Shown here in pieces: positions 49,724 to 64,000 of a DNA stretch of 64,000 nt. Source of the DNA: Escherichia coli (GTDB lineage Bacteria > Pseudomonadota > Gammaproteobacteria > Enterobacterales > Enterobacteriaceae); the NCBI RefSeq assembly GCF_022846255.1, contig NZ_AP025682.1. One strand, 5' to 3'. Position numbers and translations under genes: made by a program. Numbering within the stretch: the first letter of the stretch is position 1; each line of letters starts with the position of its first letter. The notes beneath the pieces are model-generated. The model was not told the DNA's origin and did not search any database. It saw only the letters and a list, made by a program, of their open reading frames with translations.

Positions 49724-51966
<2,243 letters not shown>

Positions 51967-54257: not shown

Positions 54258-54376
54258 AACGCCTCCTGACGCAACAACTTACCCGCACAAAATAGAATTG
54301 TGCTGTACAAACGTCCAGTTTGAAAGAAGTTTCCTGCGAGGCGCTACGCAAAACGATCGTTAATTTTCATTATTTT

Positions 54377-54412
54377 ATCCCACAATATGAGATGGAGTTT
54401 ATATTGTGGGAT
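54377..54412. promoter_or_regulatory. Perfect 12 bp inverted repeat (ATCCCACAATAT-N12-ATATTGTGGGAT): candidate operator for the downstream IclR-family regulator
   Basis: Arms 54377-54388 and 54401-54412 are exact reverse complements; located ~60 bp upstream of the regulator ATG in an AT-rich divergent promoter region. Confidence 0.5.
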
Positions 54413-54473
54413 ATATCACCTTTTCCCCACGTCATTATGTGGAACACTTCAGCAATATCATCAGGAGAAACGT

Positions 54474-55241
54474 ATGGCAGAAACCTCTTCAACCACCGCA
54501 GGCGCACAAACGTTATTACGTGGACTGGCGGTTCTTAATGCTGTTTATAACGGCTGCCATGACCTAAAAAGTATCGGCGAGTTCACCGGCACGACCCGGA
54601 GCACAACCCATCGTTTAGTCACCGTTCTGGTGGAACAACGCTACCTGCGCCATGTCCCAACGCAGGGCTACCAACTGGGTGCCAAACTGATCGAATTTGG
54701 TGCCAGAGCACTGGAAAGCACCTCGCTGTACGAAATTGCCCAGCCCGTTTTGCAACGCCTTGCCCGTTACACCCTGGACACCGTGCATCTGGGGATCGTT
54801 GAAGGCGACGAAGTGCTGTATCTGGAGAAGATCAACAGTCAGCGCGGGCTGGAAATGCGCTCACGCCCAGGCCATCGCATGCCACTGGCAATCACCGGCA
54901 TCGGCAAGGCATTGATCCTCAACCGAACAGAAGAAGAGTGGCGCACGCTGTTTAAGACCTGTGGTGATGAAACAAAACTGGGCACATTTATTCAGAACAT
55001 GCGTCGTTATGCCGCCAGTGGTTTTGCTTTTGATCTGGAAGAGAACGAGCCGACTATCCGTTGCGTTGCAGCGCCGGTTTACAACGCCCGGGATGAAATT
55101 GTGGCGGCTATTTCTGTCGCCAGTACCACCACGTATATGTCGCTGGCGCGTCTGGAAGAACTGGCACCTTACGTCAAATCCTGTGCAGAAGAGATATCCG
55201 CTGAACTGGGCTGGGGTAAGCACGTCCGCAAAGATAAATAA
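54474..55241 (+). CDS. IclR-family transcriptional regulator (KdgR-like)
   Basis: Start taken at ATG 54474 (RBS AGGAG 8 bp upstream): MAETSSTTAGAQTLLRGLAVLNAVYNGCHDLKSIGEFTGTTRSTTHRLVTVL...; N-terminal wHTH plus C-terminal effector domain; ~255 aa. Confidence 0.8.
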   Translation: MAETSSTTAGAQTLLRGLAVLNAVYNGCHDLKSIGEFTGTTRSTTHRLVTVLVEQRYLRHVPTQGYQLGAKLIEFGARALESTSLYEIAQPVLQRLARYTLDTVHLGIVEGDEVLYLEKINSQRGLEMRSRPGHRMPLAITGIGKALILNRTEEEWRTLFKTCGDETKLGTFIQNMRRYAASGFAFDLEENEPTIRCVAAPVYNARDEIVAAISVASTTTYMSLARLEELAPYVKSCAEEISAELGWGKHVRKDK

Positions 55242-55264
55242 ACCATGATTAAAGGAAACGACTA

Positions 55265-56269
55265 ATGCCGGGAGCACCCTCATTTATTGCCCTGGACTGG
55301 GGAACGTCATCGCTTCGGGCATGGCGTTTTGGCGAATCACCAAATCCACAAGAAAAACGTGAATTCCCCTGGGGGATCATGAAATTACCCTCCCAGGCAG
55401 CAACACGTGAGGACGCTTTCCACGATACGTTTTTACGTGTCTGCGGCGACTGGCTGGCACAAACCCCATGCCCGGTACTGGCTTGCGGCATGCTCGGCAG
55501 TGCGCAAGGGTGGCAATCAGCAGCTTATTTACCTTGCCCGGTCACTCTCGAGGGTCTGGCGAAGCAGTTGACGCCTGTTATCCACCAGCAGCAGACAATG
55601 CTGCATATCATTCCTGGCGTGATTAAAGAAGGTGAAATGCCCGAAGTGATGCGTGGCGAAGAAACACAAATCTTCGGTGCTATCTCGATGGAACCGGCCC
55701 TGCAAAACGCGATCCATCAGGGTATGCCAGTGCTGATAGGCTTACCCGGCACACATGCGAAATGGGCAGTAGTTGAAAACAACACCATTACCGATTTCCG
55801 AACCTTTATGACGGGCGAGTTATTTGATGTTTTATCCCGCCATTCGATTCTCGGTGCCACCATGCATCCTGGAGATGAACCGCACTGGGATGCCTTCACC
55901 CACGGGCTGACAGCAGCACAAGAGCATCATCAGACCGGATTATTATCGACGCTGTTTTCGACCCGTTCGCGCCTGCTGACCAGTAATCTTACGTCGTCCT
56001 CGCAGGGGGATTACCTTTCCGGATTACTGATAGGCCATGAATTATGTGGTCTGGCATCCAGTTTGCTACGTGATTTACCCGCCACAACACCGATCGCCTT
56101 AATCGGTAGCGCAAATCTGAACAGCCGCTATTCACAAGCATTCAGCCACGTTTTTCCCGACAGACAGATACACGCCATTCCTAATGCCACTGAACAGGGA
56201 TTATGGCGAATCGCCCACGCTGCCGGGTTACTGTCCACCAACGCCAGGGAATGTACCCATGCCATTTAA
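55265..56269 (+). CDS. 2-dehydro-3-deoxygalactonokinase family protein (DgoK paralog)
   Basis: 334 aa; motifs shared with remembered E. coli DgoK: IALDWGTSSLRAW, MRGEETQIFGA, LPGTHAKW, DFRTFMTGELFDVL, DYLSGLLIGHE. Confidence 0.8.
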   Translation: MPGAPSFIALDWGTSSLRAWRFGESPNPQEKREFPWGIMKLPSQAATREDAFHDTFLRVCGDWLAQTPCPVLACGMLGSAQGWQSAAYLPCPVTLEGLAKQLTPVIHQQQTMLHIIPGVIKEGEMPEVMRGEETQIFGAISMEPALQNAIHQGMPVLIGLPGTHAKWAVVENNTITDFRTFMTGELFDVLSRHSILGATMHPGDEPHWDAFTHGLTAAQEHHQTGLLSTLFSTRSRLLTSNLTSSSQGDYLSGLLIGHELCGLASSLLRDLPATTPIALIGSANLNSRYSQAFSHVFPDRQIHAIPNATEQGLWRIAHAAGLLSTNARECTHAI

Positions 56270-56888
56270 TACGCTTTTGCAAAAAACCGGGTTAGTCGCC
56301 ATTTTACGCGGCGTGAAACCGGATGAGATTGTCGCCATCGGTGAAAAACTGTACGCCGCCGGATTCCGCCTGATTGAGATTCCTATGAACTCGCCGGAGG
56401 CGTTGCAAAGTATCAGTATACTGCGCGACGCCCTGCCTAAGGACTGCCTGGTCGGAGCCGGAACTGTGCTTTCGGTAGAGCAGGTGGTTGCGGTTAAAGA
56501 GGCTGGGGGCCAGATTATCGTGATGCCGCATTGCGATACTGCGGTGATCCGTCGCGCCCGTGCGCTGGGTATGTATTGTGCGCCTGGCGTCGCCACGCCC
56601 ACCGAAGCCTTTGCTGCCATTGAACATGGTGCTAATGCCATCAAGCTGTTCCCGGCTGAACAAATTACGCCAGAAGTTACCAAAGCCTGGCGTGCGGTTA
56701 TTCCACAATCCGTTCCGATGTTACCGGTTGGCGGTATCACACCGGAAACCATGGCGCGTTATCTGAGCCACGGCGCAAACGGCTTTGGCCTCGGTTCTGC
56801 GCTATATCGCCCCGGCATGACGCCAGAGCAAGTCTATGAAAATGCAGTACTGTTTATGAACGCATGGAACAATTTAAATAGCAACTAA
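56259..56888 (+). CDS. 2-dehydro-3-deoxy-6-phosphogalactonate (KDPGal/KDPG) aldolase family protein (DgoA paralog)
   Basis: Start at ATG 56259 overlapping kinase stop (ATGCCATTTAA); MPFNTLLQKTGLVAILRGVKPDEIVAIGEKLYAAGFRLIEIPMNSPEALQS...GAGTVL...; strong similarity to remembered DgoA. Confidence 0.8.
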   Translation: MPFNTLLQKTGLVAILRGVKPDEIVAIGEKLYAAGFRLIEIPMNSPEALQSISILRDALPKDCLVGAGTVLSVEQVVAVKEAGGQIIVMPHCDTAVIRRARALGMYCAPGVATPTEAFAAIEHGANAIKLFPAEQITPEVTKAWRAVIPQSVPMLPVGGITPETMARYLSHGANGFGLGSALYRPGMTPEQVYENAVLFMNAWNNLNSN

Positions 56889-56912
56889 CTGATAAATAAG
56901 GATATAAAAGCA

Positions 56913-57887
56913 ATGATAAAACATCTTACCTTACCGAAAAAAATGGCTGCAATGGTACTTCTTGCAGGCGCTGCCCTCAGCATTGCGCCTGTACAGGCAG
57001 CCTCCTGGCCAACCAAACAGATCGAGTTAGTCGTTCCCTACGCTGCCGGAGGCGGTACGGATCTGGTTGCCCGTGCCTTTGCTGATGCCGCCAAAAACCA
57101 TTTACCCGTCAGCATCGGGGTTATCAATAAACCTGGCGGAGGCGGTGCTATCGGCCTGAGTGAAATCGCCGCTGCCCGCCCTAACGGTTACAAAATTGGT
57201 TTAGGCACGGTTGAACTGACCACCCTTCCCAGCCTCGGAATGGTGCGTTTTAAAACCAGCGACTTTAAACCCATTGCCCGTCTGAATGCGGATCCGGCTG
57301 CTATCACAGTCCGTGCCGATGCGCCGTGGAATAGCTATGAAGAATTTATGGCTTACTCCAAAGCGAATCCCGGAAAAGTACGCATTGGTAACTCAGGCAC
57401 CGGAGCTATCTGGCATCTGGCGGCAGCTGCACTGGAAGACAAAACGGGCACAAAGTTTTCTCATGTCCCGTATGACGGCGCAGCCCCTGCCATTACAGGC
57501 CTGTTAGGCGGGCACATTGAAGCGGTTTCCGTAAGCCCAGGAGAAGTTATCAACCATGTGAATGGCGGCAAGCTGAAGACACTGGTAGTGATGGCGGATG
57601 AGCGAATGAAAACCATGCCTGACGTCCCGACGTTAAAAGAGAAAGGCGTTGATCTCTCCATCGGCACCTGGCGCGGCCTGATTGTGTCGCAAAAAACGCC
57701 GCAGGATGTGGTGGATGTTCTGGCAAAGGCAGCAAAAGAGACGGCTGAAGAGCCTGCATTCCAGGATGCACTGCAAAAGTTGAATCTCAACTATGCATGG
57801 CTTGACGCTGCCAGCTTCCAGACCCAAATCAGCGAACAGGAAAAGTACTTTGACGAGTTGCTGACTCGCCTGGGCCTGAAAAAATAA
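56913..57887 (+). CDS. tripartite tricarboxylate transporter (TTT) periplasmic substrate-binding protein, TctC/Bug family
   Basis: 324 aa with signal peptide ...AALSIAPVQAASWP; Bug-family motifs VPYAAGGGTD, KPGGGGAIG. Confidence 0.8.
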   Translation: MIKHLTLPKKMAAMVLLAGAALSIAPVQAASWPTKQIELVVPYAAGGGTDLVARAFADAAKNHLPVSIGVINKPGGGGAIGLSEIAAARPNGYKIGLGTVELTTLPSLGMVRFKTSDFKPIARLNADPAAITVRADAPWNSYEEFMAYSKANPGKVRIGNSGTGAIWHLAAAALEDKTGTKFSHVPYDGAAPAITGLLGGHIEAVSVSPGEVINHVNGGKLKTLVVMADERMKTMPDVPTLKEKGVDLSIGTWRGLIVSQKTPQDVVDVLAKAAKETAEEPAFQDALQKLNLNYAWLDAASFQTQISEQEKYFDELLTRLGLKK

Positions 57888-57900
57888 ACCTGAGGTACGG

Positions 57901-58410
57901 TTGATGAACACAAAACAGTCTGTTGCTCAACTCGCCGTACCGCACCGCAAGCGCCTTTCATCAACGATGGTGGTGGCGCTGTTACTTTGTGTGGTTGCTG
58001 GCGCGGTGATGATTAATGCCGCTGATTTTCCAGCAACTGCCATTGAAACGGATCCCGGTGCAAGTGCCTTCCCTACCTTCTATGCCTGTGCCCTGATTGT
58101 GCTCGCTGTCTTGCTGGTGATACGCGATCTTTTGCAGGCAAAACCAGCCTCTTGCGCCAACGCACAGGAAAAACCGGCATTCAGGAAAACAGCAACAGGA
58201 ATTGCGGCAACCGCGTTTTATATTGTGGCGATGAGCTACTGCGGTTATCTCATTACTACTCCTGTTTTCCTCATCGTCATTATGACGTTGATGGGCTACA
58301 GGCGATGGGTACTCACACCGGGTATTGCGCTGCTGTTAACGGCAATCCTCTGGTTGCTGTTTGTCGAAGCGTTACAGGTGCCATTGCCTGTCGGCACATT
58401 TTTCGAATAA
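57901..58410 (+). CDS. TTT small membrane subunit (TctB-like)
   Basis: 169 aa, 4 predicted TM helices, positioned between TctC-like and TctA-like genes. Confidence 0.7.
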   Translation: MMNTKQSVAQLAVPHRKRLSSTMVVALLLCVVAGAVMINAADFPATAIETDPGASAFPTFYACALIVLAVLLVIRDLLQAKPASCANAQEKPAFRKTATGIAATAFYIVAMSYCGYLITTPVFLIVIMTLMGYRRWVLTPGIALLLTAILWLLFVEALQVPLPVGTFFE

Positions 58411-58422
58411 CAGGGGCCAGCA

Positions 58423-59913
58423 ATGTTTGAAAGTGAACTTTTAACTCAGGGTTTTTCGACATTACTCAATAATCCTCAGGCGCTGCTGTTTGCCACTTTT
58501 GGGGTGATGCTGGGTATTGTGATTGGCGCTTTGCCTGGTCTGACAGCGACCATGGGTGTGGCGATTTTGCTGCCTTTCACCTACGGCATGGAGCCTGTTT
58601 CTGGATTGTTGATGATTTGCGGCGTCTTTTTTGGTGGCGTCTACGGTGGTTCTATCACCGCAATTTTGCTCAAAATTCCCGGAACGCCTGCCGCCGCAGC
58701 CACCGCTATTGATGGTTATGAGCTGACGAAACAGGGAAAAGCAGGGCTGGCATTGAGTGCCGCCACGTTCTCTTCCTTTAGTGGCGGAACGCTCAGCATT
58801 ATCGTGCTGATGTTTCTCTCTCCGGTACTTGCCAGTTGGGCGCTGAAATTTAGTGCCTCGGAGTCCTTCGCCCTGGCAACCTTCGGACTGAGCATTATTG
58901 CCAGTATTTCCGGTGAGTCGCTGATTAAGGGGCTGATTGCCGGGGTTGGCGGATTGCTGATCGCAACGATAGGCCTTGATCCAATGGGCGGTTTTCCACG
59001 GTTTACAGGTGGATTTGTGGAGCTGATGAATGTGCCATTTATCCCGGTGATGATTGGTTTATTTGCTGCTTCAGAAGCATTCCGCTCTATGGAGCAAAAC
59101 CAGCAAATTCGTCGGGGCGCGAAGGTGGCTATCGGCAGTCTGTTACTGCCCTGGCAAACACTACGCCGCATCGCATTAACCATTTTGCGCTCATCAGGAT
59201 TAGGGGTTTTTATCGGCATGATCCCCGGTGCGGGGGCGGATATTGCAGCTTTTGTTGCCTATAACGAAACTCGTCGTTTCAGTAAGACACCAGAAAACTT
59301 TGGTAAGGGTGAAATTAAAGCTGTGGCCTCCTGTGAGGCAGGCGCGAATGGCTGCACCGGTGGCGCATTGTTACCTATGCTGACGCTGGGGATCCCTGGC
59401 GATGCGGTAACCGCCATCATGCTGGGCGCGTTAACGTTACAGGGAATGCAACCAGGCCCGCTGATGTTTACCGACCACGGCGATATGGTTTATACACTGT
59501 TTGTCGGCATGATCTTTTGTTACTTCATGCTGCTAGTTCTTGGACTGCTCTCTTTGAAAGTCATCGGTAACGTGGTGAAGATCCCCGGCAATATTCTCAC
59601 ACCGATGATCCTCGCACTTTGTGTGGTCGGGACTTATGCGTTGAACAATAGCCTTTTTGATGTTGGCATTATGCTGATTGCAGGCGTGGTGGGCTATTTC
59701 ATGCAGAAAGGAGGATATCCGGCATCACCCGTAGTGCTGGCATTGATTATGGGGCCAATGGCGGAAAGTAATTTTCGCCGTGCGCTGTCGCTTTCTGGTG
59801 GGTCACTCGACTTTCTGTATACCCGACCGATCACTCTGGCATTGCTAACTCTGGCAGCCTTTACGCTACTGACGCCAATAATCCGCAAAATAATGCGTTT
59901 ACGGCGTCAGTAA
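58423..59913 (+). CDS. TTT large permease subunit (TctA-like)
   Basis: 496 aa polytopic membrane protein with duplicated-domain architecture typical of TctA. Confidence 0.8.
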   Translation: MFESELLTQGFSTLLNNPQALLFATFGVMLGIVIGALPGLTATMGVAILLPFTYGMEPVSGLLMICGVFFGGVYGGSITAILLKIPGTPAAAATAIDGYELTKQGKAGLALSAATFSSFSGGTLSIIVLMFLSPVLASWALKFSASESFALATFGLSIIASISGESLIKGLIAGVGGLLIATIGLDPMGGFPRFTGGFVELMNVPFIPVMIGLFAASEAFRSMEQNQQIRRGAKVAIGSLLLPWQTLRRIALTILRSSGLGVFIGMIPGAGADIAAFVAYNETRRFSKTPENFGKGEIKAVASCEAGANGCTGGALLPMLTLGIPGDAVTAIMLGALTLQGMQPGPLMFTDHGDMVYTLFVGMIFCYFMLLVLGLLSLKVIGNVVKIPGNILTPMILALCVVGTYALNNSLFDVGIMLIAGVVGYFMQKGGYPASPVVLALIMGPMAESNFRRALSLSGGSLDFLYTRPITLALLTLAAFTLLTPIIRKIMRLRRQ

Positions 59914-59920
59914 CTGATAT

Positions 59921-59947
59921 CGCTCCCCGAAGTTGGGGAGCGTTTTT
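59921..59947 (+). terminator. Rho-independent terminator after the tctA-like gene
   Basis: Hairpin GCTCCCCGAAGTTGGGGAGC followed by GTTTTTTTATTT; lies in the 34 bp gap before the convergent udp stop. Confidence 0.6.
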
Positions 59948-60712
59948 TTATTTCAGCAGACGACGCGCCGCTTCCACCACGATTTTCACCGCATGGCTTT
60001 CGGTTTGTTTCATCGTCTCAGCATTCGGGATCTCTTGCTGGGTGCGGTTAACGATAACCCCCGCTACCATACCGGCACGCAGGCCCTGACTTGCACACAT
60101 GGTCAGCAGGGTTGCAGATTCCATTTCATAGTTCATTACGCCCATCGCCTGCCACTCTTCCATAGAACCTTTAAAGTGACGAACTACGCGACCAGAGTAA
60201 GTATCGTAACGTTCCTGACCAGGGTAGAAGGTATCAGAAGAAGCTGTCACGCCAACGTGAGTCGTCGCGCCAATGGATTTCGCAGCTTCAACCAGCGCAG
60301 TCGTACATTCGAAATCAGCGACAGCCGGGAATTCCAGCGGTGCGAAGTGCAGGCTCGCACCATCCAGACGAACAGACGCCGTGGTAACCAGGACATCGCC
60401 AACATTAATATGCGGCTGAATAGCGCCCGTTGTGCCGATACGCAGGAAGGTGCGAATGCCCAGCTGTGCCAGCTCTTCAACAGCAATAGAGGTAGACGGG
60501 CCGCCGATACCGGTAGAGCAGACGATAACAGGTTTACCATCCAGCTCTGCACGCCAGGTGGTGAATTCGCGATGAGATGCCAGCTTAACCGGCTTATCCA
60601 TCAGCGCGGCGATCTTTTCCACACGATCCGGGTCGCCAGGGACGATGGCAAGCGTAGCCCCTTGTAAATCGTTTTTAGTGAGGCCGAGATGAAAAACATC
60701 AGACTTGGACAT
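59948..60712 (-). CDS. udp: uridine phosphorylase
   Basis: Start taken at [44 protein letters not shown]; PNP/UDP family. Confidence 0.95.
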
Positions 60713-62039: not shown

Positions 62040-62708
62040 ATGACGCAATCCATTTTTCAGGCTCAACCCTTTGAATTACCTTTTGATCCGCGCACAACTG
62101 CACTGGTCATGATCGACATGCAGCGTGACTTTGTCGAAGCAGGGGGCTTCGGTGAGGCACTGGGCAATGATGTTTCACTGGTACGCACGGCTATCGCACC
62201 ATGTACAGAGGTGCTGGCAGCCGCACGTCAAAAAGGAATTATGGTTATTCATACTCGTGAAGGCCATCGTGCAGACTTAAGCGACTGCCCGCCAGCCAAA
62301 CTGACGCGCGGCGGAAAAACCTTTATTGGTGAACCAGGACCGATGGGACGCATTCTGGTCAGAGGTGAAGCAGGTCATGACATCATTCCTGAACTGTACC
62401 CGGTGGCAGGCGAACCGGTGATTGATAAGCCTGGCAAAGGCGCGTTTTATCAAACCGACTTACATCTGATTTTGCAAAACCACGGTATCAAGACGCTGAT
62501 AGTTTGTGGTGTTACAACCGAAGTTTGCGTAACCACCACCGTGCGCGAAGCAAATGATCGTGGCTATGAATGCATTATCCCGGAAGATTGTGTCGGCTCC
62601 TATTTCCCGGAATTCCAGAAATACGCCCTCGAGATGATCAAAGCACAAGGTGCCATTTTCGGTTGGGTTACTGATTCCAAAGCCATTATTGCAGGCCTGG
62701 AAGGCTAA
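62040..62708 (+). CDS. isochorismatase-family cysteine hydrolase (RutB-like amidohydrolase)
   Basis: 222 aa; RBS ACAGGAGA; catalytic-triad contexts MIDMQRDF (Asp), DKPGKGAFYQT (Lys), GVTTEVCVTTT (Cys); resembles remembered RutB ureidoacrylate amidohydrolase. Confidence 0.8.
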   Translation: MTQSIFQAQPFELPFDPRTTALVMIDMQRDFVEAGGFGEALGNDVSLVRTAIAPCTEVLAAARQKGIMVIHTREGHRADLSDCPPAKLTRGGKTFIGEPGPMGRILVRGEAGHDIIPELYPVAGEPVIDKPGKGAFYQTDLHLILQNHGIKTLIVCGVTTEVCVTTTVREANDRGYECIIPEDCVGSYFPEFQKYALEMIKAQGAIFGWVTDSKAIIAGLEG

Positions 62709-62713
62709 CACCG

Positions 62714-63574
62714 ATGGTACAGGTTACGCTTTGCGCATCGTCGTTGGGATATCTTTTCCCGCAGAATGAAACGCAAGATTTACGTCTACATAGCGCTTTT
62801 AAACATGCGGTAAATCTGTATTCAGACGCGGGAACATTCATCACTCTGTTGTGTGCGCAAACGTATCTGAATCTCCCTGATGCAGCCAGAGTCTGGCTAC
62901 CTGAATGTTGGGACTGGCGAAGAGAGATTGCCCATTCAGATCCCATTCAGTTAACCCCAGGCTTACTGCGGACACCTCGATTTTGTGTGGCGCTCGAAAA
63001 CGCAACGCTCTGGCAGTCGCCATTTGTGGGGGGAATGCTGACACTTGAGGCATTCCCTTTGGTTTTCCAGCACTACCCAACGATGGCATCGCAACGGCTT
63101 TTATTTTGTCTGGAACATAACGTTCAAAGCACATTGCACCTGCCGGATAGTCTCACGCACCAGGGATTAGCGATTATGGAGCATCCAGATGCGCTGGAAC
63201 GCCAGGTGCCACAACTGATCGGCTTTGGTAAAGGCTTAACGCCCGATGGAGATGACTATTTGTTGGGCTATCTGGCAGCACTCTGGTTATGGCAACTCCC
63301 TGCACCACTTGCCGATCATCAATACCGGTTGCAGCAGGTAATTGATCAACATGCGCACAACACCACGGATATCAGTCGTCATTATCTGGAGCGTGCGCTT
63401 CAGGGACATTTTTCAGAACCGATTTGCCAGTTACTCGCACAACTGGTTGGGAGTGCATCGGCAATGACAATCGCATCCTGTGCAGAACAGGTCATGCAAT
63501 TTGGCGCAACGTCAGGAGTAGATTGCCTTGCAGGAATGCTGCATGGCTTTCGAACCCTGAACACCATGAATTGA
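62714..63574 (+). CDS. DUF2877-like protein (AllH/YlbF/YahE-type partner of FdrA-like proteins)
   Basis: 286 aa starting 6 bp after the hydrolase stop (translationally coupled); motif GKGLTPDGDDYLLGYL; family assignment from size and position before an FdrA-like gene. Confidence 0.55.
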   Translation: MVQVTLCASSLGYLFPQNETQDLRLHSAFKHAVNLYSDAGTFITLLCAQTYLNLPDAARVWLPECWDWRREIAHSDPIQLTPGLLRTPRFCVALENATLWQSPFVGGMLTLEAFPLVFQHYPTMASQRLLFCLEHNVQSTLHLPDSLTHQGLAIMEHPDALERQVPQLIGFGKGLTPDGDDYLLGYLAALWLWQLPAPLADHQYRLQQVIDQHAHNTTDISRHYLERALQGHFSEPICQLLAQLVGSASAMTIASCAEQVMQFGATSGVDCLAGMLHGFRTLNTMN

Positions 63575-63668
63575 TTTCAACCTTTTCTCCCGTAGCCCGT
63601 TTATGGGGCTACACGGGGATGCTTTGCCCGAATTTTGCTATCGGGCGGAATGAAACAGGCGTAACAGC

Positions 63669-64000
63669 ATGAAAGTTAAATATAAAGTTTTCAGTAATCT
63701 TTATCAGGACTCAGTTTCTCTGATGCAGATTTCCGCGCAAATCAGCAAGTTGCCCGGTATTCAACAGGCCTCGGTCGTCATGGGAACACCCAATAATCTC
63801 GAGCAATTGAGCGATGCGGGTCTGGGTAACGAAATCAACGCCAGTCCCAATGATTTAGTGATTGCAGTCATGGGTGAAGAAGATATTTGCAATGAAGCAC
63901 TGGTACTGGCCCAGCAACGTCTGACCAGCAAACCCGATGATGAAACGGATAGTGGCATTAAAACACCGGAAAAGGTCAGCCTGGAAATGGCACTGGAAGC
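63669..64000 (+). CDS. FdrA/AllF-like protein (CoA-binding/succinyl-CoA-synthetase-like fold), N-terminal 110 aa only; continues beyond window
   Basis: MKVKYKVFSNLYQDSVSLMQISAQISKLPGIQQASVVMGTPNNLEQLSDAGL...SPNDLVIAVMG aligns with remembered FdrA N-terminus (FQDSVSLM...VMMGTP...TPNDI); no stop in window. Confidence 0.8.
   Translation, partial: MKVKYKVFSNLYQDSVSLMQISAQISKLPGIQQASVVMGTPNNLEQLSDAGLGNEINASPNDLVIAVMGEEDICNEALVLAQQRLTSKPDDETDSGIKTPEKVSLEMALE

What the first reader, a model, noticed from the sequence alone, without database searches (positions are those of the whole stretch)
55265..56888. Translationally coupled DgoK/DgoA paralog pair without a cognate dehydratase
The kinase stop and aldolase start overlap (ATGCCATTTAA), as in the canonical dgoK-dgoA pair, but no DgoD-like dehydratase is encoded in the operon. 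That implies either the imported substrate is already a 2-keto-3-deoxy aldonate, or dehydration is supplied in trans. Key DgoK motifs are conserved while the rest of the protein is diverged, so the substrate may differ from 2-keto-3-deoxygalactonate.
Basis: partly seen in the sequence, partly recalled or inferred. Interest (0 to 1): 0.55.

Follow-up and report, generated by a model that had tools for sequence, protein, structure and literature searches.

The report
Keto-deoxy sugar acid uptake operon
This is an ordinary accessory six-gene E. coli operon (regulator, sugar-acid kinase, aldolase, three-part carboxylate importer) that lacks a dehydratase most likely because it imports an already dehydrated sugar acid; its true substrate is untested.

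Summary
A DgoK-family kinase (55265-56269) and a DgoA-type aldolase (56259-56888) overlap by the 11 bases ATGCCATTTAA. No sugar-acid dehydratase is found anywhere in the 64-kb window.

The pair is the middle of a 5.6-kb accessory operon, iclR-dgoK'-dgoA'-tctC-tctB-tctA, between rmuC and udp. About 27% of complete E. coli genomes carry it, including ST131 and an E. coli B laboratory strain. K-12 lacks it. RefSeq already names the genes by homology. I found no experimental paper.

All six genes are under purifying selection. The aldolase has every KDPGal-type stereochemistry residue. The kinase groups with betaproteobacterial kinases that sit next to DgoD. A substrate other than 2-keto-3-deoxy-D-galactonate (KDGal) is therefore not supported.

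Among 80 species with an orthologous TctC, 45 link it to a kinase and an aldolase. Only one adds DgoD. Firmicute versions are KdgR-TctCBA-KdgK-Eda, or carry KduI. Proteobacterial versions often add a relative of an alginate keto-uronate reductase.

The best reading (about 0.55) is a TTT-based salvage operon for pre-formed KDGal. The main rival (about 0.28) is D-galactonate uptake with the core DgoD acting in trans. Interest is modest.

The parts
54358..59947 (+). Extent of the accessory island relative to E. coli K-12 (rmuC | island | udp)
   Evidence: Aligning the K-12 rmuC-udp junction with both island edges shows identity up to about 54357 and again from the udp stop codon. The island replaces about 45 bp of K-12 intergenic DNA, including the udp terminator. 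G+C is 51-54%, like the flanks.
54376..54413 (.). Candidate operator: perfect 13-nt inverted repeat TATCCCACAATAT-N12-ATATTGTGGGATA, about 60 nt upstream of iclR
   Evidence: One search found the repeat. A related ATCCCAnAnATAnGGGAT motif lies upstream of iclR in Buttiauxella, Klebsiella and Brenneria. Its role as an operator is inferred, not shown.
54474..55241 (+). IclR-family regulator (255 aa), KdgR/BhcR-like
   Evidence: NCBIfam gives BhcR 142 bits and KdgR 129 bits, both below their cut-offs. PGAP calls it an IclR family regulator. Orthologs carry HTH_IclR + IclR_C. An IclR gene accompanies all 45 kinase+aldolase+TctC loci.
55265..56269 (+). DgoK-family kinase, predicted 2-dehydro-3-deoxygalactonokinase (334 aa)
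   Evidence: Pfam DGOK E = 4e-89. PDB 3R1X and 3T69 match at E about 1e-37. Identity is 35% to E. coli DgoK and 49% to the kinases of Burkholderiaceae De Ley-Doudoroff-type clusters. 67 of 68 family-conserved columns are kept. dN/dS is 0.15.
56259..56269 (+). 11-nt stop/start overlap ATGCCATTTAA, with AGGGAA (56246-56251) 7 nt upstream of the ATG
   Evidence: Read directly from the sequence. Translational coupling is inferred from this geometry.
56259..56888 (+). DgoA-type class I aldolase, predicted 2-dehydro-3-deoxy-6-phosphogalactonate aldolase (209 aa)
   Evidence: NF006600 scores 321.7 bits (cut-off 207), while Eda TIGR01182 scores 135.6 bits (cut-off 156). Identity to E. coli DgoA is 46%, without gaps. 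KDPGal-type residues are all present. dN/dS is 0.06.
56913..57887 (+). TctC/Bug-family periplasmic substrate-binding protein with a signal peptide (324 aa)
   Evidence: Pfam TctC E = 4e-55. The best PDB match is 4X9T (E = 1.6e-99), an apo structure with unknown ligand. Both pincer-loop motifs, PYAAGGGTD and GNSGTG, are present.
57904..58410 (+). TctB small membrane subunit (168 aa)
   Evidence: Pfam TctB E = 1.9e-21. The start follows PGAP.
58423..59913 (+). TctA large permease subunit (496 aa)
   Evidence: Pfam TctA E = 1.9e-151. dN/dS is 0.016.
59921..59942 (.). Terminator-like hairpin (9 pairs, 7 G-C) with a T run, between the convergent tctA and udp
   Evidence: Intergenic gaps inside the island are 23, -11, 24, 16 and 12 nt, so it probably forms one transcription unit (inference).

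Best explanation
The kinase/aldolase pair is the catalytic core of a self-contained accessory operon, iclR-dgoK'-dgoA'-tctCBA. The proposed route has three steps. First, the TctC binding protein and the TctBA permease take up a pre-formed 2-keto-3-deoxy-hexonate, most probably 2-keto-3-deoxy-D-galactonate (KDGal). Second, the DgoK-type kinase phosphorylates it at C6. Third, the DgoA-type aldolase cleaves it to pyruvate and D-glyceraldehyde 3-phosphate. The IclR repressor probably senses the acid or its phosphate at a palindromic operator. On this reading no dehydratase is encoded because the substrate is already dehydrated. The operon is then the KDGal counterpart of the kdgR-kdgT-kdgK-eda salvage system for KDG, with a TTT transporter in place of KdgT. 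Shown here: the gene identities, the operon architecture, purifying selection, the distribution, and the repeated absence of a dehydratase next to related loci. Inferred: the transported ligand, the effector, the operator and the translational coupling.
For: Enzyme identity. The kinase gives a full-length DGOK match and keeps 67 of 68 family-conserved columns. In a neighbour-joining (NJ) tree it sits beside DgoD-linked kinases from Acidovorax and Bordetella genomosp. 4, with the experimentally known E. coli DgoK further out. The aldolase passes the NCBIfam KDPGal-aldolase cut-off but not the Eda cut-off. It has the Schiff-base Lys, the Glu and the Arg, plus the published stereoselectivity sites A11/I12/V154 (citing PMC4915726, 72).

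Functionality. dN/dS is 0.016-0.19 for all six genes against Escherichia whittamii, with dS close to the flanking core genes.

Module conservation. The same six genes lie in the same order at rmuC/udp in Buttiauxella, Klebsiella and Phytobacter, and elsewhere in Brenneria, Enterobacter, Citrobacter and Lelliottia.

Dehydratase absent. Of 80 species with a TctC ortholog (54-98% identity), 45 have a kinase and an aldolase within 5 kb, and all 45 have an IclR gene. Only one, L057, has a close DgoD.

Ligand clue from unrelated enzyme sets around the same transporter. Brevibacillus (two species) and Alkalihalobacillus have a KdgR-like IclR, TctCBA, a PfkB KdgK and an Eda. Geosporobacter has IclR, Eda, TctCBA, a DGOK kinase, an SDR and KduI. 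In 31 of the 45 loci an SDR about 65% identical to the Sphingomonas A1-R/A1-R' DEH reductases sits in the cluster. Photobacterium pectinilyticum adds a KduD/IdnO-like SDR and an RpiB-like protein directly downstream. Azospirillum thermophilum has KduI and KdgT genes 7-10 kb downstream of the cassette. The shared theme is keto-deoxy acids, not aldonates.

Similarity. E. coli TctC is 62-65% identical to the Brevibacillus TctCs (KDG context) and 58% identical to the DgoD-linked L057 TctC. L057 alone departs at several otherwise conserved positions, two of them (S161A, A165S) in or next to the pincer-loop motif.

Logic (from memory, not verified here). The canonical dgo operon is induced by D-galactonate through DgoR, and K-12 cannot take up KDGal. 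A KDGal module would therefore need its own kinase, aldolase and regulator, which is what is found.
Against: There is no biochemical or genetic datum for any of the six proteins, and I found no paper on the island. The closest solved TctC (4X9T) is apo with an unknown ligand. One related locus (L057) does place DgoD between dgoA and tctC. A published genomic reconstruction predicted D-galactonate uptake for an IclR-dgoK-TTT cluster in Salinivirga. dgoD is available in trans in essentially every E. coli genome. A plentiful natural source of free D-KDGal in the gut is not established. The companion SDR does not fit neatly: reducing the common lyase products gives KDG (4S,5R) or L-KDGal (4S,5S), not the 4R substrate expected for a DgoA-type aldolase. 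SDR plus SGL lactonase could instead be a galactose dehydrogenase/lactonase pair, which would point to D-galactonate. The trees are NJ trees without support values.
Confidence: 0.55

Rival explanations
1. The TTT system is a high-affinity D-galactonate importer. The imported galactonate is dehydrated by the core DgoD acting in trans, and the island supplies a second, IclR-controlled kinase/aldolase pair. This would be a De Ley-Doudoroff lower-pathway module with its dehydratase encoded elsewhere.
For: The canonical dgoRKADT is present in 5424 of 5426 E. coli genomes. Burkholderiaceae IclR-dgoK-dgoA-SDR-lactonase clusters also lack a dehydratase in cis, and they are the closest non-enteric relatives of the island IclR/K/A trio (54-56%, 49% and 60% identity). 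Bordetella genomosp. 4 has dgoK-dgoA-dgoD-tctCBA. Leyn et al. 2017 predicted D-galactonate uptake for an IclR-dgoK-TTT locus. The SDR+SGL pair found in many cassettes resembles a dehydrogenase/lactonase pair that would make an aldonate.
Against: The island kinase and aldolase would duplicate DgoK and DgoA, which D-galactonate would induce together with DgoD, yet both island genes are under purifying selection. 44 of 45 related loci lack a close DgoD. The one locus that has it carries a TctC outside the main clade, with changes at otherwise conserved positions, two of them in or next to the pincer loop. Firmicute orthologs sit with KdgK/Eda or KduI, where an aldonate ligand makes no sense. The companion SDR's nearest characterised relatives are keto-uronate reductases, not aldose dehydrogenases.
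Confidence: 0.28
2. The operon handles another keto-deoxy acid. Candidates are KDG, 2-keto-3-deoxy-L-galactonate, or the lyase-derived 4-deoxy-5-hexosulose uronates (DTHU/DKI or DEH). In that case the DgoK/DgoA names are misleading.
For: DGOK-family kinases occur with an Eda-type aldolase and KduI in Geosporobacter, so family membership does not fix specificity. Many proteobacterial cassettes carry a DEH-reductase-like SDR. KduI/KduD or RpiB-like/KduD-like genes lie next to some cassettes. TctC orthologs at 57-66% identity sit in KDG contexts.
Against: All proteobacterial cassette aldolases, including the E. coli one, have the 4R (KDPGal-type) determinants, whereas Brevibacillus L041 has V12/T154. 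The Firmicute aldolases tested (L041, L086) pass the Eda cut-off but not the KDPGal one. The E. coli kinase and aldolase cluster with DgoD-linked enzymes. The E. coli island has no reductase or isomerase. E. coli already has KdgT, KdgK, Eda and KduI/KduD for KDG and DKI (established knowledge).
Confidence: 0.12
3. The island is a redundant or decaying remnant without a current function.
For: It is absent from about 73% of complete E. coli genomes. The kinase, the aldolase and TctB are the fastest-evolving genes between genera.
Against: All six ORFs are intact in more than 1400 genomes at >=99% identity. dN/dS is 0.016-0.19. The module is conserved across several genera and phyla.
Confidence: 0.03

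Closest known systems
E. coli dgoRKADT operon (D-galactonate catabolism, De Ley-Doudoroff lower pathway)
   Same: It has the same two enzyme families in the same order, dgoK then dgoA, with overlapping stop and start codons (17 nt in K-12, 11 nt here). The aldolase active-site and stereoselectivity residues are identical.
   Different: The island has no DgoD dehydratase. Its regulator is IclR-type rather than the GntR-type DgoR. Its transporter is TctCBA rather than the MFS symporter DgoT. Identity is only 35% (kinase) and 46% (aldolase). The island proteins belong to a different, betaproteobacterial-like lineage.
KDG salvage systems: kdgR-kdgT-kdgK-eda regulon of enterobacteria and kdgRKAT of Bacillus subtilis (from general knowledge)
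   Same: The logic is the same: a repressor, an importer for a pre-formed 2-keto-3-deoxy-hexonate, a kinase and a class I aldolase, with no dehydratase. Brevibacillus and Alkalihalobacillus have exactly this set with the orthologous TctCBA in place of KdgT.
   Different: The kinase is DGOK-family, not PfkB. The aldolase is KDPGal-type (4R), not KDPG-type (4S). The transporter is TTT, not KdgT. The ligand is untested.
Burkholderiaceae iclR-dgoK-dgoA-(SDR)-(lactonase)-(mutarotase) clusters, of the kind expected for D-galactose oxidation
   Same: These are the closest non-enteric relatives of the island IclR, kinase and aldolase (54-56%, 49% and 60% identity). They have the same iclR-K-A order and also lack a dehydratase in cis.
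   Different: Those clusters add sugar-oxidising enzymes and, in B. cepacia, an ABC sugar transporter. The island has a TTT carboxylate transporter and no oxidising enzymes.
TctCBA citrate transporter of Salmonella and the Bug family of TTT binding proteins
   Same: It has the same three-component architecture and Pfam families, and the pincer-loop motifs are present.
   Different: The ligand is unlikely to be citrate given the operon partners. The closest solved homolog (4X9T) has no known ligand. No TTT system has been shown to carry a keto-deoxy sugar acid, as far as the 2018 review and the 2024 paper read here go.
Predicted GalR(IclR)-dgoK-TTT locus of Salinivirga fredricksonii HL-109 (Leyn et al. 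2017, PMC5507952)
   Same: It combines the same gene families. It is the only published mention of this cluster type that I found.
   Different: That work predicted D-galactonate as the ligand, from one genome and without experiment. The wider survey here points to a keto-deoxy acid instead.
Sphingomonas sp. A1 DEH reductases A1-R and A1-R' (PDB 3AFM, 4TKL), relevant to the companion SDR of related cassettes
   Same: The cassette SDRs are about 65% identical over their full length and lie next to the A1-R/DehR clade in the NJ tree.
   Different: The E. coli island has no such SDR. The A1-R-family member whose context I examined sits with an alginate lyase and an SSF transporter (Kluyvera). The expected products of the known reaction do not match a 4R aldolase.

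Membership tests
DGOK / 2-dehydro-3-deoxygalactonokinase (PF05035, EC 2.7.1.58) | Full-length match to the family profile | tested here: met
   PF05035 matches residues 11-316 to model positions 1-281 of 281, E = 4e-89. PDB DgoK structures 3R1X and 3T69 match at E about 1e-37.
DGOK / 2-dehydro-3-deoxygalactonokinase (PF05035, EC 2.7.1.58) | Conserved family motifs (DWGT/S..R, GMxGSxxGW, RGEExQ, PGxHxKW, TxMTGE, LSGLxxG) | tested here: met
   67 of 68 columns conserved at >=93% in 154 members are kept; the exception is L to F at residue 7. The motifs are visible in the pairwise alignment.
DGOK / 2-dehydro-3-deoxygalactonokinase (PF05035, EC 2.7.1.58) | Placement among kinases whose role in galactonate catabolism is supported by a linked DgoD | tested here: met
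   In the NJ tree it is sister to Acidovorax (K-A-D) and Bordetella gsp. 4 (K-A-D-TTT), with E. coli DgoK further out. The tree has no bootstrap support.
DGOK / 2-dehydro-3-deoxygalactonokinase (PF05035, EC 2.7.1.58) | ATP-dependent phosphorylation of KDGal in preference to KDG | not testable with these tools
   This needs an enzyme assay.
KDPGal aldolase DgoA (EC 4.1.2.21; PF01081 class I aldolase) | Score above the curated NCBIfam cut-off for KDPGal aldolase and below that for Eda | tested here: met
   NF006600 scores 321.7 bits (cut-off 207). TIGR01182 eda scores 135.6 bits (cut-off 156).
KDPGal aldolase DgoA (EC 4.1.2.21; PF01081 class I aldolase) | Schiff-base Lys126, Glu37 and Arg14 (E. 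coli numbering) | tested here: met
   K129, E40 and R17 in a gap-free alignment.
KDPGal aldolase DgoA (EC 4.1.2.21; PF01081 class I aldolase) | 4R stereoselectivity determinants A11, I12 and V154 (against P19, V20 and T161 in KDPG aldolase) | tested here: met
   A14, I15 and V157. The determinants are taken from PMC4915726.
Canonical dgo operon (dgoRKADT) | D-galactonate dehydratase DgoD in the operon | tested here: not met
   No DgoD, IlvD/EDD or GarD-like homolog is found in the 64-kb window.
Canonical dgo operon (dgoRKADT) | GntR-family DgoR and MFS symporter DgoT | tested here: not met
   The regulator is IclR-family. The transporter is TctCBA. There is no DgoT hit.
Tripartite tricarboxylate transporter (TTT) | Adjacent TctC, TctB and TctA components | tested here: met
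   PF03401 E = 4e-55, PF07331 E = 2e-21, PF01970 E = 2e-151. The three genes are separated by 16 and 12 nt.
Tripartite tricarboxylate transporter (TTT) | Known ligand of the binding protein | not testable with these tools
   The closest structure, 4X9T, is apo with an unknown ligand. Binding assays are needed.
Keto-deoxy-acid salvage operon (kdgRKAT type): 'works like', not membership | Repressor + importer + kinase + aldolase, with no dehydratase | tested here: met
   This is the island architecture. Firmicute orthologous TctCBA loci with KdgK and Eda have the same layout.
Keto-deoxy-acid salvage operon (kdgRKAT type): 'works like', not membership | KdgT permease and PfkB-family KdgK | tested here: not met
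   The transporter is TTT and the kinase is DGOK-family.

The most novel reading that the evidence does not exclude
The E. coli island would be the stripped-down core of a widespread, uncharacterised TTT-based system for pre-dehydrated (keto-deoxy) sugar acids. That system is found in alpha-, beta- and gammaproteobacteria and in Firmicutes. Its proteobacterial form (A1-R-like reductase, often an SMP-30-type lactonase, DgoK, DgoA) would be a route from lyase- or oxidation-derived keto-uronates that matches no described pathway, because the known reductase products (KDG, L-KDGal) do not fit a 4R aldolase. On this reading E. coli strains such as ST131, Nissle-derived strains and E. coli B strains would scavenge KDGal-type intermediates released by other microbes.
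Probability: 0.25. Interest if true: 0.6.

Novelty: new variant of a known kind. Interest (0 to 1): 0.38.

Why it matters
If the ligand call is right, this would be the first functional assignment for a TTT transporter in E. coli. It would also be the first TTT system for a keto-deoxy sugar acid, and it would give a likely ligand class to a binding-protein clade whose solved structure (4X9T) has none.

It would explain why about a quarter of E. coli genomes carry a second DgoK/DgoA pair: to use an intermediate that, from memory, neither enters K-12 nor induces the dgo operon. Carriers include ST131, a Nissle-derived strain and an E. coli B laboratory strain.

It is easy to test, because K-12 lacks the island and E. 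coli B strains have it. In itself it is an ordinary accessory catabolic operon that homology already names correctly at the enzyme level.

Tried and rejected
Literature. Ten full-text searches were run. They combined TTT, galactonokinase, KDGal, rmuC/udp, the RefSeq WP accessions, 4X9T/Bpro_3516, DgoR and the 2-oxo-3-deoxygalactonate kinase name. None found a paper on the E. coli island. The Klebsiella DgoK structure paper and the DgoR paper could not be read. The B versus K-12 multi-omics paper does not mention the island.

Family libraries. NCBIfam has no model that matches the kinase or any of the three TTT proteins, so Pfam was used instead.

Gene calling. My first home-made ORF caller picked antisense shadow ORFs in high-GC loci. 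Counts in this report therefore rest on tblastn with defined queries.

A1-R'. The exact A1-R' sequence is not in the contig index, so its own genomic context could not be seen. A Kluyvera family member lies in an alginate-lyase context, not in a cassette.

Rejected ideas:
- The companion SDR makes D-KDGal from common unsaturated uronates. By my own stereochemical working, DEH gives KDG (4S,5R) and DTHU/DKI gives L-KDGal (4S,5S).
- The island is recent foreign DNA. Its G+C matches the flanks, no integrase or repeats were seen, and dS resembles the flanking genes.
- An RNA element lies in the island. Rfam finds none there.
- The upstream ATG at 56184 is the aldolase start.

Not attempted: structure prediction, because it could not decide the ligand.
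Full report
WHAT IS THERE. The window is E. coli chromosome: rfaH-tatDCBA-ubiBJE-rmuC on the minus strand, then six plus-strand genes, then udp and ysgA. The six genes are:
- an IclR-family regulator (54474-55241);
- a DGOK-family kinase (55265-56269; Pfam PF05035, full length, E = 4e-89);
- a DgoA-type aldolase (56259-56888; NCBIfam NF006600 at 321.7 bits against a cut-off of 207);
- TctC (56913-57887), TctB (57904-58410) and TctA (58423-59913), with Pfam E-values of 4e-55, 2e-21 and 2e-151.

The kinase stop and the aldolase start share ATGCCATTTAA at 56259-56269, and AGGGAA lies 7 nt upstream of the ATG. Gaps between the genes are 23, -11, 24, 16 and 12 nt. A strong hairpin followed by a T run sits right after tctA, at 59921-59942. 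One transcription unit is therefore likely, though this is inferred. Within the whole 64-kb window, tblastn finds no DgoD, IlvD/EDD-type or GarD-like dehydratase, no DgoT, no A1-R-like SDR and no SGL lactonase.

STATUS IN E. COLI. The 5.6-kb block is an accessory island.
- It matches 1480 of 5426 complete genomes, almost always at >=99% identity and on the chromosome.
- Carriers include an O25b:H4-ST131 strain, strain SYNB1934 (which I believe is Nissle-derived) and NEBExpress_Iq (an E. coli B derivative, from my own knowledge). In NEBExpress_Iq all six genes are intact.
- K-12 lacks it. Alignment of the K-12 rmuC-udp junction shows the island replaces about 45 bp, including the udp terminator, and adds one codon to udp.
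- G+C matches the flanks.
- PGAP already names the genes as 2-dehydro-3-deoxygalactonokinase, KDPGal aldolase, a Bug-family binding protein, TctB and a TTT permease.
- The canonical dgoRKADT operon is present in 5424 of 5426 genomes. The pair is therefore truly a second copy, and DgoD is available in trans.
- Ten full-text searches found no paper on the island.

ARE THE GENES FUNCTIONAL, AND WHAT ARE THE ENZYMES? Against Escherichia whittamii, dN/dS is 0.05 (iclR), 0.15 (kinase), 0.06 (aldolase), 0.11 (tctC), 0.19 (tctB) and 0.016 (tctA). dS (0.08-0.31) is similar to ubiE, rmuC and udp (0.20-0.44). This means purifying selection and long residence at this site.

The same six genes occupy the rmuC/udp site in Buttiauxella, Klebsiella spallanzanii, K. 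indica and Phytobacter. They occupy other sites in Brenneria, Enterobacter, Citrobacter and Lelliottia.

The kinase is only 35% identical to E. coli DgoK, but it is not an aberrant family member:
- it keeps 67 of 68 columns conserved at >=93% in 154 family members;
- it is 47-49% identical to betaproteobacterial kinases of De Ley-Doudoroff-type clusters;
- in an NJ tree it sits next to kinases encoded beside DgoD (Acidovorax, Bordetella genomosp. 4), with E. coli DgoK further out.

The aldolase is 46% identical to E. coli DgoA without a gap. It has R17, E40 and K129, matching E. coli R14, E37 and K126. It also has the published stereoselectivity determinants of KDPGal aldolase: A14, I15 and V157, matching A11, I12 and V154 (KDPG aldolase has P19, V20 and T161; PMC4915726). 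All proteobacterial cassette aldolases share these residues. Brevibacillus L041 has V12/T154, and the Firmicute aldolases tested (L041, L086) pass the Eda cut-off instead.

I conclude, at about 0.85, that the pair is a KDGal kinase and a KDPGal aldolase.

WHY THERE IS NO DEHYDRATASE. I scanned one genome per species for relatives of TctC and kept 80 loci with 54-98% identity. The counts from tblastn with defined queries are:
- 45 loci have a DGOK kinase and a DgoA/Eda-type aldolase within 5 kb;
- all 45 have an IclR gene;
- 40 show TctA, and some of the remaining loci are cut short by contig ends;
- only one (L057, Bordetella genomosp. 4: K-A-DgoD-TctCBA) has a close DgoD;
- two others have only a 30-37% enolase-superfamily homolog about 8 kb away.

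The enzyme sets around the same transporter are otherwise very varied.
- Three Firmicutes (Brevibacillus borstelensis, B. thermoruber, Alkalihalobacillus) have a KdgR-like IclR, TctCBA, a PfkB KdgK and an Eda. This is the classical KDG salvage set, with TTT in place of KdgT.
- Geosporobacter has IclR, Eda, TctCBA, a DGOK kinase, an SDR and KduI (NF002091, 401 bits).
- In 31 of the 45 loci an SDR lies in the cluster, and 16 of those also have an SMP-30/regucalcin-type lactonase, which never occurs without the SDR. This SDR is about 65% identical over its full length (E about 1e-105) to the Sphingomonas A1-R and A1-R' 4-deoxy-L-erythro-5-hexoseulose uronate reductases. It lies next to that clade in an NJ tree.
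- A family member from inside the A1-R clade, in Kluyvera, sits with an alginate lyase and an SSF transporter.
- Photobacterium pectinilyticum has a KduD/IdnO-like SDR and an RpiB/LacAB-type protein directly after the cassette.
- Azospirillum thermophilum has KduI, an SDR and KdgT 7-10 kb downstream of the cassette.

The one constant is transporter, kinase, class I aldolase and IclR. The variable front ends all act on, or make, 2-keto-3-deoxy-hexonates. That pattern is what one expects if the transporter carries a keto-deoxy acid, which would make a dehydratase unnecessary.

Two further observations agree with this. E. coli TctC is 62-65% identical to the Brevibacillus TctCs (KDG context) but 58% identical to the DgoD-linked L057 protein. 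L057 falls outside the main cassette clade. It alone changes several otherwise conserved positions, two of them (S161A, A165S) in or next to the carboxylate-binding pincer-loop motif.

From memory, and not verified here (Cooper 1978, and later work on DgoR): K-12 cannot take up KDGal, and DgoR responds to D-galactonate. If so, a KDGal module needs its own regulator, kinase and aldolase, which is the gene content found.

THE MAIN RIVAL. The TTT system could import D-galactonate and rely on DgoD in trans. In its favour:
- dgoD is nearly universal in E. coli;
- the closest non-enteric relatives of the island IclR/K/A trio are Burkholderiaceae clusters that also keep their dehydratase elsewhere;
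- L057 shows that a K-A-D-TTT combination exists;
- Leyn et al. 2017 predicted D-galactonate uptake for an IclR-dgoK-TTT locus in Salinivirga;
- SDR plus lactonase could be read as galactose dehydrogenase plus lactonase.

Against it: the island kinase and aldolase would be redundant, the Firmicute contexts make no sense for an aldonate, and the SDR's nearest characterised relatives are reductases rather than aldose dehydrogenases. I put this rival at about 0.28 and the keto-deoxy import model at about 0.55.

WHAT REMAINS UNEXPLAINED. By my own working, checked against the IUPAC names I recall, reducing DEH gives KDG (4S,5R) and reducing the pectin- or glycosaminoglycan-derived DTHU/DKI gives L-KDGal (4S,5S). 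Neither is the 4R substrate expected for a DgoA-type aldolase. The role of the A1-R-like SDR and the lactonase in the proteobacterial cassettes is therefore not explained by any pathway I know. This does not affect the E. coli island, which has neither gene, but it is the most interesting loose end.

REGULATION. A perfect 13-nt inverted repeat, TATCCCACAATAT-N12-ATATTGTGGGATA, lies at 54376-54413, about 60 nt upstream of iclR. A related ATCCCAnAnATAnGGGAT motif lies upstream of iclR in Buttiauxella, Klebsiella and Brenneria. It is a plausible IclR operator overlapping the promoter. This is inference only.

VERDICT. The feature is an accessory operon that homology already annotates but nobody appears to have characterised. 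It works like a KDG salvage operon but uses DgoK/DgoA-type enzymes and a TTT transporter. It is a new variant of a known kind, of modest interest, and cheap to test because K-12 lacks it and E. coli B strains carry it.

Noticed in passing
window 62040-64000 (and beyond; L001 13741-17651): A second accessory block lies after ysgA: a cysteine hydrolase family protein, a DUF2877 protein, then FdrA and DUF1116 genes. In K-12, ysgA abuts metE, so this block is absent there.
   Followed up: no
window 59914-59950: The right edge of the island lies at the udp stop codon. Here udp ends ...RRLLK* instead of ...RRLL* in K-12, and the K-12 udp terminator is replaced by the island's hairpin at 59921-59942.
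   Followed up: partly
window 54376-54413: A perfect 13-nt inverted repeat lies upstream of iclR. A related palindromic motif is conserved upstream of iclR in three other genera. It is a candidate operator.
   Followed up: partly
L009 6512-7288 and 13184-14098; 31 of 45 related loci (e.g. L017, L021, L029, L047, L056): Related cassettes carry an SDR about 65% identical to the alginate DEH reductases A1-R/A1-R'. Often they also carry an SMP-30-type lactonase, which never occurs without the SDR. The known reductase products (KDG, L-KDGal) do not match the 4R DgoA-type aldolase next to them.
   Followed up: partly
L041 9054-15554; L049; L074; L086 8063-15780: Firmicute loci with the orthologous TctCBA carry KdgR-like IclR, PfkB KdgK and Eda (Brevibacillus, Alkalihalobacillus), or Eda, a DGOK-family kinase, an SDR and KduI (Geosporobacter). 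So a DGOK-family kinase occurs in a KDG/DKI context.
   Followed up: yes
L011 5079-7258 and 13239-14003; L018; L024: The Enterobacter, Citrobacter and Lelliottia versions of the cassette have an extra, very divergent DGOK paralog and an Fe-dependent alcohol dehydrogenase transcribed divergently. They also have a second IclR gene downstream.
   Followed up: no
L064-L092 (Variovorax and relatives): A sister clade of TctC occurs as an orphan SDR-TctC pair, without TctBA. It lies next to a GntR, uronate dehydrogenase-like, lactonase, TRAP transporter and GarD/UxaA-like dehydratase cluster. The names for the uronate dehydrogenase, TRAP and GarD-like genes are my reading of the sequences, not a tool result.
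   Followed up: partly
L056 14174-15728: In Photobacterium pectinilyticum the cassette is followed directly by a KduD/IdnO-like SDR and an RpiB/LacAB + DUF3666 protein. From memory, this architecture is that of the streptococcal DhuD/DhuI pair for unsaturated uronates.
   Followed up: partly
window 54387-54473: The mechanical ORF for the regulator starts at 54387 (284 aa). PGAP and the orthologs support the ATG at 54474 (255 aa).
   Followed up: yes
window 51361-51612: Rfam finds the EsrE ('Erse') small RNA inside the 3' end of ubiJ, as annotated in K-12. An rrn operon, CsrC and Spot 42 lie further upstream in the window.
   Followed up: no
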